From: Escherichia coli
Lineage (GTDB): Bacteria; Pseudomonadota; Gammaproteobacteria; Enterobacterales; Enterobacteriaceae
Assembly (NCBI RefSeq): GCF_003334255.1
Contig: NZ_QOWU01000086.1
Length of the DNA: 9,929 bases
Strand: one strand, 5' to 3'
In this document: one piece after another, positions 2,776 to 3,529 of the stretch
Position numbering within the stretch: position 1 is the first letter of the stretch
How the letters are laid out: each line of letters starts with the position of its first letter
Translations under genes and position numbers: made by a program
Notes under the pieces: model-generated
Told to the model about the DNA's origin: nothing
The model's input: only the letters and a program-made list of their open reading frames with translations
Databases searched by the model: none

Positions 2776-3450
2776 TTAAATTTTGTCACTAATATAGTTG
2801 CCATGGTCATCGATAATGGTCAGATGCCAGTTATTTGCATTATTACTTTTGACATTAACACTCTGACTTTCTAAGGGGGCAATCATAATAGTTTCATAAT
2901 TGACTTTGACATTATTAGCTTTGACATCCGAAATCGTCACCCAATTAGCTGAGTCATTTTTTATCACCAAACCATTGCCACTGCGATTTACCAGCAATTT
3001 TTTAAATGTCGCTTTATTTACCGGAGCAATACCCGCTGGCCGGTAAAACAACTTAATTCTGTTTTGCATCGCAAACTTCAGTGCATTCTTACCTTCTTGC
3101 TCTGGACTATTTGGTGGAATATCCAGAACATTCAGATAAAAAATGCTTTCTTTATTAGTGGGCAGTTTATTCGGCATAATTTTGATTTTTACTTGCTGCC
3201 CGGAATTTGCCCCTATTTTTGCCACTGGTGGCGTTAACATGAAAGGAACCTGAATTTTTTCTGGTGGTAATGACGTATCGCCATCATCAATCCACGCCTG
3301 CAGCAGCGAAGAACGGTTTCCCTGGTTCATCAACTGCACCATCACTTCTTTATTTTCTGCCGGGTAAATAATGCGCGTCCCGTAGATAACAATTCCGGCA
3401 TGTGCAGGAAGGACCATAGAAAAAATGAGTAAAGATAATAATCCTTTCAT
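2776..3450 (-). CDS. yehC: Periplasmic fimbrial chaperone (PapD/FimC family); likely start at 3450 (224 aa), alternative upstream ATG at 3495 (239 aa)
   Basis: The motif GIVIYGTRIIYPAENKEVMVQLMNQGNRSSLLQAWIDDGD resembles the conserved N-terminal strand of PapD-like chaperones. Signal peptide MKGLLSLLIFSMVLPAHA begins at ATG 3450 with an AAGAGG Shine-Dalgarno upstream. The 3495 ATG sits inside a GC hairpin and lacks a good ribosome-binding site. Confidence 0.85.
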   Translation of the reverse strand: MKGLLSLLIFSMVLPAHAGIVIYGTRIIYPAENKEVMVQLMNQGNRSSLLQAWIDDGDTSLPPEKIQVPFMLTPPVAKIGANSGQQVKIKIMPNKLPTNKESIFYLNVLDIPPNSPEQEGKNALKFAMQNRIKLFYRPAGIAPVNKATFKKLLVNRSGNGLVIKNDSANWVTISDVKANNVKVNYETIMIAPLESQSVNVKSNNANNWHLTIIDDHGNYISDKI

Positions 3451-3454
3451 TTTA

Positions 3455-3493
3455 ATGCCTCTTAAATTAAAAGGCCGCCATGGGATAGCGGCC
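3455..3493 (-). terminator. Intra-operon stem-loop followed by a U-rich tract between yehD and yehC (possible attenuator or partial terminator)
   Basis: Plus strand 3473..3478 GGCCGC and 3488..3493 GCGGCC form a 6-bp GC stem with a 9-nt loop. On the minus-strand transcript the hairpin is followed by UUUUAAUUU. It lies 3' of the major subunit gene, as in other fimbrial operons. Confidence 0.35.
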
Positions 3494-3529
3494 ATGTTTA
3501 TTACCTGGAGAAACTTACAATTTTATTTA

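What the first reader, a model, noticed from the sequence alone, without database searches (positions are those of the whole stretch)
3448..3495. Hairpin between yehD and yehC overlaps the longer candidate yehC start
A GGCCGC/GCGGCC stem-loop followed by UUUUAAUUU sits immediately 3' of the major subunit gene. The upstream ATG (3495), which gives the 239-aa ORF, lies at the 5' edge of this hairpin and has no good Shine-Dalgarno. The ATG at 3450 has AAGAGG upstream and begins exactly at the signal peptide. The structure may attenuate read-through so that the subunit is made in excess over chaperone and usher, and the 239-aa start is probably an over-extension.
Basis: partly seen in the sequence, partly recalled or inferred. 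Interest (0 to 1): 0.35.

Follow-up and report, generated by a model that had tools for sequence, protein, structure and literature searches.

The report
Conserved RNA hairpin after the Yeh pilin gene
A stable, evolutionarily conserved RNA hairpin sits between the pilin gene yehD and the chaperone gene yehC of an E. coli fimbrial operon, as is known for other fimbrial operons, and the longer 239-residue yehC start that overlaps it is almost certainly an annotation over-extension that RefSeq's automatic annotation has already corrected.

Summary
On the minus strand, 3493..3473 folds into a 9-bp, 3-nt-loop hairpin (-15.3 kcal/mol; 0 of 200 shuffles as stable), followed by UUUUAAUUU, then AAGAGG, then ATG 3450.

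The 239-aa start (ATG 3495) is very probably not used:
- Its G is the first stem base.
- 2858 of 5232 typed complete E. coli genomes carry a 4-nt loop. This shifts that ATG out of frame, giving MAAIPMAAF-stop, while yehC stays intact.
- Citrobacter has an in-frame stop upstream.
- The 15 extra residues are not conserved.
- All PGAP records examined use the 224-aa start. Only the K-12 reference record (b2110) keeps 239 aa.

The hairpin itself is under selection. Within Escherichia, 95.9% of cells pair and three stem positions carry compensatory double changes. Across 63 distinct homologous operons, 55 have a hairpin of -10 kcal/mol or stronger within 45 nt of the pilin stop codon. Only 17 of those 55 have a U-rich tail.

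The conserved function is therefore more likely to set the pilin:assembly mRNA ratio by protecting the pilin mRNA 3' end. Leaky intrinsic termination would be an extra in the U-tailed allele seen here. No transcript data were found. This is a new member of a known kind and of low interest.

The parts
3530..4072 (-). yehD, the major fimbrial subunit gene (180 aa). Its stop codon TAA is at 3532..3530 and is followed by further stops (UAAUAAAUAA).
   Evidence: ORF list. RefSeq annotation of identical sequence as yehD fimbrial protein. K-12 b2111. Pfam Fimbrial on orthologues.
3473..3493 (-). Intercistronic RNA hairpin: 5' arm 3493..3485 (GGCCGCUAU), loop 3484..3482 (CCC), 3' arm 3481..3473 (AUGGCGGCC).
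   Evidence: -15.3 kcal/mol, z -3.4 to -3.7, 0 of 200 shuffles as stable. Flagged terminator-like. Within Escherichia, 95.9% of cells paired and 3 pairs carry double changes. All E. coli variants differ only in the loop or by G-C to G-U.
3464..3472 (-). U-rich tail UUUUAAUUU directly after the stem. It is present in the main E. coli allele only.
   Evidence: Sequence and scan. Absent in the O157:H7 Sakai allele, E. albertii, E. whittamii and many homologous operons.
3493..3495 (-). Upstream ATG giving the 239-aa ORF. It is probably not a functional start, and its G is the first base of the stem.
   Evidence: Out of frame (MAAIPMAAF-stop) in the 4-nt-loop alleles. K-12 record b2110 uses it, whereas PGAP does not.
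3503..3506 (-). Weak Shine-Dalgarno-like AGGU, 7 nt upstream of ATG 3495.
   Evidence: Anti-SD duplex -3.8 kcal/mol, against -5.8 for the AAGAGG site.
3458..3463 (-). Shine-Dalgarno AAGAGG of yehC, 7 nt upstream of ATG 3450 and 9 nt downstream of the stem.
   Evidence: Sequence. Duplex energy -5.8 kcal/mol. AAGAGGCAUUAA is invariant in the Escherichia alignment.
2776..3450 (-). yehC, a PapD-like periplasmic chaperone of 224 aa, with its probable true start at ATG 3450.
   Evidence: PGAP annotation of the identical sequence starts here. Homologues are 224-227 aa. Pfam PF00345 and PF02753.
3397..3450 (-). Predicted 18-residue signal peptide MKGLLSLLIFSMVLPAHA. Cleavage after AHA would leave mature GIVIYGTR...
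   Evidence: Residue 1 of mature FimC and SfaE chains aligns with G34 of the 239-aa form, which is G19 of the 224-aa form. Residue 3 of YadV aligns with I35. No signal-peptide predictor was available; the assignment is by alignment and by n/h/c-region inspection.

Best explanation
The feature is a selected RNA hairpin in the spacer between the major pilin cistron (yehD) and the chaperone-usher-adhesin cistrons (yehC, yehB, yehA) of the Yeh gamma-4 chaperone-usher operon. It most likely raises the ratio of pilin mRNA to assembly-gene mRNA in one or both of two ways. In the allele seen here, with its UUUUAAUUU tail, it could stop a fraction of RNA polymerases (leaky intrinsic termination). More generally, it could form a 3' stem-loop that shields the yehD segment from 3'-to-5' exonucleases after termination or cleavage. 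Read-through transcripts translate yehC from ATG 3450, using the AAGAGG site that lies just outside the stem. The ATG at 3495 is a by-product of the stem sequence (A + UGGCC...), and the 239-aa yehC is an over-extended annotation. Shown here: the structure, its conservation and covariation, and the start-codon argument. Inferred: the effect on transcript ratios and which of the two routes dominates.
For: Structure:
- 9-bp hairpin at -15.3 kcal/mol, with 0 of 200 shuffles as stable.
- It starts 36 nt after the yehD stop and ends 22 nt before the yehC ATG, so neither a terminating nor an initiating ribosome should cover it.

Selection on the structure:
- The four alleles of the main E. coli type differ only in the loop (CCC, CCCC, CUCC) or by G-C to G-U.
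- Across Escherichia species, 95.9% of cells pair and 3 stem positions carry changes on both sides, against 0 to 1 in slid controls.
- The neighbouring spacer sequence diverges.

Generality:
- In 80 homologous loci from Enterobacterales and beyond, 55 of 63 distinct best hairpins are -10 kcal/mol or stronger and lie within 45 nt of the upstream gene's stop codon. The median z is -4.3, and 73% have no shuffle as good.
- The upstream genes are fimbrial subunits: 38 of 80 match YehD by phmmer, and 21 of 23 sampled others match Pfam PF00419.

Start codon:
- 2858 of 5232 typed genomes have ATG 3495 out of frame while yehC is kept.
- C. koseri has an in-frame TAA two codons upstream of its yehC ATG.
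- The extension is not conserved.
- Mature chaperone N-termini align to G19 of the short form.
- The short start has the stronger SD.
- PGAP uses it.

Read-through must occur: the Sakai yeh operon driven from a single Ptet promoter assembles visible fimbriae (PMC7098969).

Precedents:
- Partial termination between papA and papH (PMC6524683).
- 3' protective hairpins in malEFG, and differential decay in the CFA/I fimbrial operon (PMC5927463; PMC4423207).
Against: - No experimental 3' ends, half-lives or read-through measurements exist for this site. yeh is H-NS-silenced in laboratory K-12 (PMC5797941), and two Term-seq supplements contain no yehD or yehC entry.
- The U tract is interrupted (4 U, 2 A, 3 U). 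It is absent in the O157:H7 allele, E. albertii, E. whittamii and 38 of 55 homologous operons, so termination cannot be the conserved function.
- The terminator pattern scan is not enriched over shuffles.
- Shuffle controls used mononucleotide shuffles, and the loci are phylogenetically related.
- On the start codon: FimC precursors also carry a long N-terminal region before the hydrophobic core, so length alone does not exclude the 239-aa form. The upstream ATG is in frame in two alleles, K-12 type and Sakai type. PGAP start calls are computational, not experimental.
Confidence: 0.7

Rival explanations
1. Pure attenuator: the hairpin plus U tract is a Rho-independent terminator, and partial termination is the whole mechanism.
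For: GC-rich 9-bp stem directly followed by UUUUAAUUU, flagged by the scan. One frequent allele changes the last stem pair to G-U and lengthens the run to UUUUU. The papA-papH partial terminator is a precedent.
Against: The U tract is lost while the hairpin is kept in the Sakai allele (368 genomes), E. albertii, E. whittamii and most homologous operons. No mapped 3' ends were found.
Confidence: 0.3
2. Pure stabiliser: RNA polymerase reads through, and the hairpin acts only after endonucleolytic cleavage downstream. It blocks PNPase and RNase II so that yehD mRNA outlives yehCBA mRNA, as at malE-malF or in CFA/I.
For: The hairpin, not the tail, is conserved across 55 of 63 operons. It shows covariation. 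An A/U-rich single-stranded stretch follows the stem, the kind of sequence RNase E prefers (PMC4423207).
Against: No decay data exist. The main E. coli allele does keep a U-rich tail, invariant in the four allele sequences that cover 4864 genomes, which suggests the tail matters there.
Confidence: 0.3
3. The 239-aa start is real: YehC is made from ATG 3495, and the hairpin tunes its translation.
For: The ORF is open from 3495 in K-12-type (2006 genomes) and Sakai-type (368 genomes) alleles. A weak AGGU lies 7 nt upstream. FimC has a comparably long pre-hydrophobic region. The K-12 record annotates it.
Against: ATG 3495 is out of frame with a stop after 9 codons in 2858 genomes that keep yehC. 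The residues are not conserved and change in step with RNA pairing. The start codon's G and the next 20 nt are locked in a -15 kcal/mol stem. A strong SD and a canonical signal peptide begin at 3450.
Confidence: 0.04
4. Chance palindrome with no function.
For: Short GC palindromes occur by chance, and the pattern scan finds as many sites in shuffles.
Against: Energy z -3.4 to -3.7. Compensatory changes. The same position is occupied by unrelated strong hairpins in 55 of 63 homologous operons.
Confidence: 0.04

Closest known systems
Partial transcription terminator between papA and papH in the pap (P pilus) operon (Baga et al. 1985, as summarised in PMC6524683)
   Same: A stem-loop directly after the major pilin gene of a chaperone-usher operon and ahead of the minor-subunit and assembly genes. 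It is thought to lower downstream transcript levels so that pilin is made in excess. The E. coli yeh allele has the same anatomy of stem plus U-rich tail.
   Different: A different fimbrial clade (pi versus gamma-4). Here the next gene is the chaperone itself. No transcript mapping exists for yeh. The U tract is not conserved among yeh orthologues.
3' protective intercistronic hairpins and selective RNA processing and stabilisation (malE-malF; CFA/I cfaAB; PMC5927463, PMC4423207)
   Same: A stable stem-loop 3' of the cistron needed in excess, conserved as structure rather than sequence, with or without a U tract. This fits the 38 of 55 homologous hairpins that lack a U-rich tail.
   Different: The malE-malF element is a REP repeat present in many copies. 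The yeh hairpin is single-copy (1 place per genome) and has no Rfam match. Processing and decay have not been measured here.
Canonical intrinsic (Rho-independent) terminators
   Same: GC-rich stem of 9 bp, short loop, U-rich tail starting at the stem base.
   Different: The tail is interrupted after 4 U. The site lies inside an operon whose downstream genes are required, so it can be leaky at most. The tail is not conserved in sister alleles.
Over-extended start annotations in the K-12 reference record that PGAP resolves differently
   Same: b2110 (239 aa) against WP_000677393.1 (224 aa) for identical DNA.
   Different: Here a population-level frameshift polymorphism provides an unusually clean natural test.

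Membership tests
Intrinsic (Rho-independent) terminator | Stable GC-rich stem-loop | tested here: met
   9 bp with 6 GC pairs, -15.3 kcal/mol, z -3.4 to -3.7.
Intrinsic (Rho-independent) terminator | Run of U immediately 3' of the stem | tested here: inconclusive
   UUUUAAUUU has 7 U in 9 but only 4 contiguous. It passes the scan's criterion of 5 in 8. The tail is absent in the Sakai allele, E. albertii, E. whittamii and 38 of 55 homologous operons.
Intrinsic (Rho-independent) terminator | Transcript 3' ends mapping to the U tract, or termination in vitro | not testable with these tools
   No yehD or yehC entries in the held supplements of two Term-seq studies. The operon is silent in laboratory K-12.
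3' protective hairpin / selective RNA processing and stabilisation | Stable stem-loop in the spacer 3' of the cistron required in excess | tested here: met
   The hairpin starts 36 nt after the yehD stop. The same arrangement occurs in 55 of 63 distinct homologous operons.
3' protective hairpin / selective RNA processing and stabilisation | Structure conserved through compensatory change | tested here: met
   Alignment A3: 95.9% of cells paired, 3 pairs changed on both sides, and 2 of 500 shuffles reach the covariation score. Slid controls give 0 to 1 such pairs. Only 10 related sequences were used, so this is supportive rather than decisive.
3' protective hairpin / selective RNA processing and stabilisation | Longer half-life or higher abundance of the upstream segment, dependent on the hairpin | not testable with these tools
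   No decay or abundance data per cistron were found.
REP / repeated extragenic palindrome | Many dispersed copies per genome sharing a consensus | tested here: not met
   One place per genome for the 41-42-mers. No Rfam family match. Megablast would miss diverged copies, but the sequence does not resemble the REP consensus as I recall it.
PapD-like periplasmic chaperone (YehC) | PapD_N and PapD_C domains, a cleavable signal peptide, and a mature N-terminus aligned with solved chaperones | tested here: met
   PF00345 and PF02753 on the homologues. E-values of 1e-26 to 2e-36 to PapD, YadV and CupB2 (FimC about 1e-25). Mature FimC residue 1 aligns with G19 of the 224-aa form.
Genuine N-terminal extension of YehC (239 aa) | Extension conserved in frame and in sequence among orthologues | tested here: not met
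   Frame broken in 2858 of 5232 typed genomes. Stop two codons upstream in C. koseri. Residues differ between alleles: MAAIPWRPFNLRGIK, MAAIFMAASINIRGIK, and in E. albertii LTAIFLAVNMNTRGIK.

The most novel reading that the evidence does not exclude
In the 4-nt-loop alleles, the upstream ATG opens a 9-codon mini-ORF (MAAIPMAAF-stop in the CCCC-loop alleles, MAAISMAAF-stop in the CUCC allele). These alleles make up 55% of typed E. coli genomes. The mini-ORF covers the hairpin almost exactly, and its UAA lies inside the U tract. If ribosomes initiate there, using the weak AGGU site, they would melt the stem. The hairpin would then act as a translation-sensitive switch that couples the pilin:assembly transcript ratio to ribosome availability, rather than as a fixed attenuator.
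Probability: 0.03. Interest if true: 0.55.

Novelty: new member of a known kind. Interest (0 to 1): 0.17.

Why it matters
There are two practical consequences.

First, the K-12 reference record annotates yehC (b2110, NP_416613.1) as 239 aa. It should read 224 aa, starting at the ATG equivalent to window position 3450. This affects signal-peptide numbering and construct design, at a time when Yeh pili are being studied structurally (PMC12778044).

Second, anyone expressing yeh or related gamma-type fimbrial operons should know that a conserved stem-loop after the pilin gene probably sets subunit stoichiometry. Removing or keeping it could change pilus yield.

The survey of homologous operons suggests this device is near-universal in this fimbrial clade and often works without a U tract. 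That is a modest generalisation of the pap, CFA/I and malEFG precedents, not a new principle.

Tried and rejected
- Rfam gathering search of the whole window found no family.
- The promoter/terminator pattern scan flags the site but is not enriched over shuffles, so it was not used as evidence of significance.
- Counting alleles with 66-67-nt queries gave ambiguous counts, because 28-mers are shared across alleles. These were replaced by 41-43-mers designed to share no 28-mer.
- Term-seq supplements (eLife 2021; TERMITe 2025) contain no yehD or yehC entries. The NAR 2022 paper has no held supplements.
- Searches for per-gene yeh expression data returned only an operon-level fold change (SlyA study) or unrelated genomics papers.
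- A riboswitch-entropy paper that lists the yeh operon refers to the region upstream of yehD, not to this spacer.
- The Jordi 1993 CFA/I paper is not held.
- Single-sequence phmmer of YehD recognised only 38 of 80 upstream ORFs. A Pfam scan of a sample of the rest was needed.
- REP-element and chance-palindrome readings were rejected.
- A local fold of -25..+35 around ATG 3450 borrowed bases from the main stem and was discarded in favour of a 211-nt context fold.

Full report
**Locus**

The window is 99.05% identical, without gaps, to E. coli K-12 MG1655 2,188,228-2,198,000 and 100% identical over the tested 401 nt to strain 720632.

On the minus strand it carries, in order:
- yehE (4365..4646)
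- yehD (3530..4072), the major fimbrial subunit
- yehC (2776..3450 or 3495), a PapD-like chaperone
- yehB (about 280..2760), the usher
- the start of yehA

apbC/mrp lies upstream on the same (minus) strand, and metG beyond it runs the opposite way on the plus strand. This is the Yeh gamma-4 chaperone-usher operon. A 2026 paper names the genes in the reverse order, with yehA as the major subunit (PMC12778044).

**Observation**

The minus strand reads yehD-UAA, then 36 nt, then GGCCGCUAU-CCC-AUGGCGGCC (3493..3473), UUUUAAUUU (3472..3464), AAGAGG (3463..3458), 7 nt, and AUG (3450).

- Folded alone it gives -15.3 kcal/mol, and none of 200 dinucleotide shuffles folds as well (z -3.4 to -3.7).
- It persists in every longer context folded.
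- The consensus scan flags it as terminator-like, but that scan finds as many sites in shuffled sequence (2 against 1.9), so it says nothing about significance.
- The ATG at 3495 contributes its G to the first stem pair.
- A weak AGGU lies 7 nt upstream of that ATG. Its anti-SD duplex is -3.8 kcal/mol, against -5.8 for AAGAGG, so "no good Shine-Dalgarno" is nearly but not wholly right.

**Which start is used**

The K-12 reference record annotates 239 aa (b2110). Every PGAP-annotated genome examined annotates 224 aa starting at the equivalent of 3450. The 41-43-mers containing the hairpin fall under no annotated feature in the listed records.

The strongest evidence is a natural experiment.

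| Allele | Genomes | Upstream ATG |
|---|---|---|
| Loop CCC (this window, K-12) | 2006 | in frame, 15 codons (MAAIPWRPFNLRGIK) |
| Loop CCCC | 1323 | out of frame (MAAIPMAAF-stop) |
| Loop CCCC, last pair G-U | 1024 | out of frame (MAAIPMAAF-stop) |
| Loop CUCC | 511 | out of frame (MAAISMAAF-stop) |
| Divergent O157:H7-type | 368 | in frame, 16 codons (MAAIFMAASINIRGIK) |

So 2858 of 5232 typed genomes cannot make the extension, yet all keep an intact, annotated yehC.

Further points on the start:
- Outgroup loops are 4 to 6 nt. The K-12 CCC loop therefore looks like a derived 1-nt deletion in a C run that fused the ATG to yehC by accident (inference).
- C. koseri has a TAA two codons upstream of its yehC ATG.
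- Homologues share nothing with the 15 residues except RGIK, which is the translation of the conserved ribosome-binding site AGAGGCAUUAA.
- Residue 1 of mature FimC and SfaE chains aligns to G34 of the long form. PapD precursor residue 4 aligns to M16.
- The short form thus has a textbook 18-residue signal peptide, MKGLLSLLIFSMVLPAHA|G.
- Caveat 1: FimC precursors also have a long region before the hydrophobic core, so length alone is not an argument.
- Caveat 2: PGAP starts are computational.

**The hairpin is under selection as a structure**

Within the main E. coli allele, all variation is in the loop or converts G-C to G-U.

In an alignment of ten Escherichia sequences (E. coli alleles, E. 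albertii, E. whittamii and two unnamed species):
- 95.9% of cells pair.
- Three stem positions carry changes on both sides. G-C becomes A-U at two positions, in different lineages. C-G/U-A alternates at the stem base.
- Slid controls give 0 to 1 such pairs, and 2 of 500 shuffles reach the covariation score.
- The flanking spacer, by contrast, diverges freely.

The set is small and related, so this is good supporting evidence rather than proof.

**Wider family**

A scan of one genome per species returned 80 loci encoding YehC relatives of 38-96% identity. They come from Escherichia, Citrobacter, Salmonella, Klebsiella, Enterobacter, Serratia, Photorhabdus, Proteus, Providencia, Pluralibacter, Edwardsiella, Gallibacterium, Pseudomonas and Acinetobacter.

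- In 55 of 63 distinct cases, the best hairpin between the upstream gene's stop and the chaperone's mature N-terminus is -10 kcal/mol or stronger and starts within 45 nt of the stop. The median distance is 11 nt.
- The median z against shuffles is -4.3, and 73% have no shuffle as good.
- The upstream genes are fimbrial subunits: 38 of 80 by phmmer to YehD, and 21 of 23 sampled others by Pfam PF00419.
- The hairpin sequences are unrelated between clades.
- A Citrobacter/Salmonella paralogue group shows its own G-C to G-U to A-U series.
- Only 17 of the 55 have at least 5 U in 8 nt after the stem, and 18 have 2 U or fewer in the first 8 nt.
- The O157:H7 Sakai allele (UGGCCGCCAU-AUUC-AUGGCGGCCA followed by GCAUAAAUAU) has no U tract. 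Even so, the Sakai operon driven from one Ptet promoter assembles fimbriae.

**Mechanism**

The conserved element is a strong stem-loop just past the pilin cistron. It is far enough from the stop codon and from the next ribosome-binding site to form while both genes are translated.

The best-supported reading is a stoichiometry device, because pilin is needed in large excess over chaperone, usher and adhesin. Two known routes fit:
- Partial intrinsic termination, as reported between papA and papH (PMC6524683).
- Protection of the upstream mRNA segment from 3' exonucleases, as at malE-malF and in the CFA/I fimbrial operon (PMC5927463; PMC4423207).

The allele in this window has the anatomy for both. 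The comparative data say that only the second, or some other U-independent effect, can be general. I could not separate them. yeh is H-NS-silenced in laboratory K-12, and no 3'-end or per-cistron decay data were found.

**Rivals and a more novel reading**

- A real 239-aa YehC is very unlikely, for the reasons above.
- A chance palindrome is very unlikely, given the energy, the covariation and the recurrence at the same position.
- A REP element is excluded by copy number.
- More speculatively, the 9-codon mini-ORF co-extensive with the stem in most E. coli could make the hairpin translation-sensitive. Nothing supports this beyond geometry.

**Verdict**

The start-codon interpretation is strongly supported and already implemented in RefSeq PGAP records, though not in the K-12 reference record. 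The attenuator interpretation is plausible but incomplete. This is a new, undescribed member of a well-known kind of intra-operon control element, so it is ordinary and of low interest. The by-product is a useful generalisation across this fimbrial clade.

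Noticed in passing
window 3420..3453 (minus strand): A second, AU-rich hairpin (AAAAUGAAAGGAU-UAUU-AUCUUUACUCAUUUU) encloses the yehC start codon. It folds at -6.9 kcal/mol, z -3.8, with 3 of 300 mononucleotide shuffles as stable, and the start codon has P(unpaired) 0.07 in a 211-nt context fold. It may simply reflect the A-rich Lys codons pairing with the U-rich signal-peptide codons. Other alleles carry a U-to-G change in the 3' arm.
   Followed up: partly
L099:7441-7510 (E. coli O157:H7 Sakai) and 368 genomes: O157:H7-type strains carry a divergent allele of the whole yehD-yehC region at the same chromosomal site. 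The chaperone is about 88% identical, the hairpin has a different sequence and there is no U tract. One of the 368 matches lies on a plasmid record.
   Followed up: partly
window 8324..9865 (+): A 513-aa ORF starts where K-12 yehF (275 aa) starts (window 8324 corresponds to K-12 2,196,474). It runs about 240 codons further than in K-12, so the MolR-family pseudogene region after metG seems less decayed in this strain than in K-12.
   Followed up: no
window 4909..6048 (-), 6141..8183 (+), 280..2775 (-): The longest ORFs of apbC/mrp (379 aa), metG (680 aa) and yehB (831 aa from TTG) exceed the annotated lengths (369, 677 and 826 aa). Longest-ORF starts are therefore over-extended for several genes in this window, not only for yehC.
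   Followed up: no
window 4073..4364 and 4365..4646 (-); loci L005-L012: yehE (DUF2574, 93 aa) lies between apbC and yehD in Escherichia, E. albertii and Citrobacter. It is followed by a spacer of about 290 nt holding a sigma-70-like site (TTGATA-16-AATACT, 4257..4230). yehE travels with the operon, but its role is unknown.
   Followed up: no
L006:2191-3675 (E. albertii CP034212) and L013 (E. coli E2855): The operon is decaying in some strains. The usher yehB is split by an IS1 insertion in one E. albertii genome, and yehD is annotated as frameshifted in E. coli E2855. S. flexneri 2457T lists yehC and yehA as pseudogenes.
   Followed up: no
literature (PMC12778044): The gene names are used in opposite senses. 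K-12 annotation has yehD as the major subunit and yehA as the adhesin. The 2026 Sci Adv paper uses yehA for the major subunit, yehB for the chaperone, yehC for the usher and yehD for the adhesin. This is a trap for anyone cross-referencing.
   Followed up: yes
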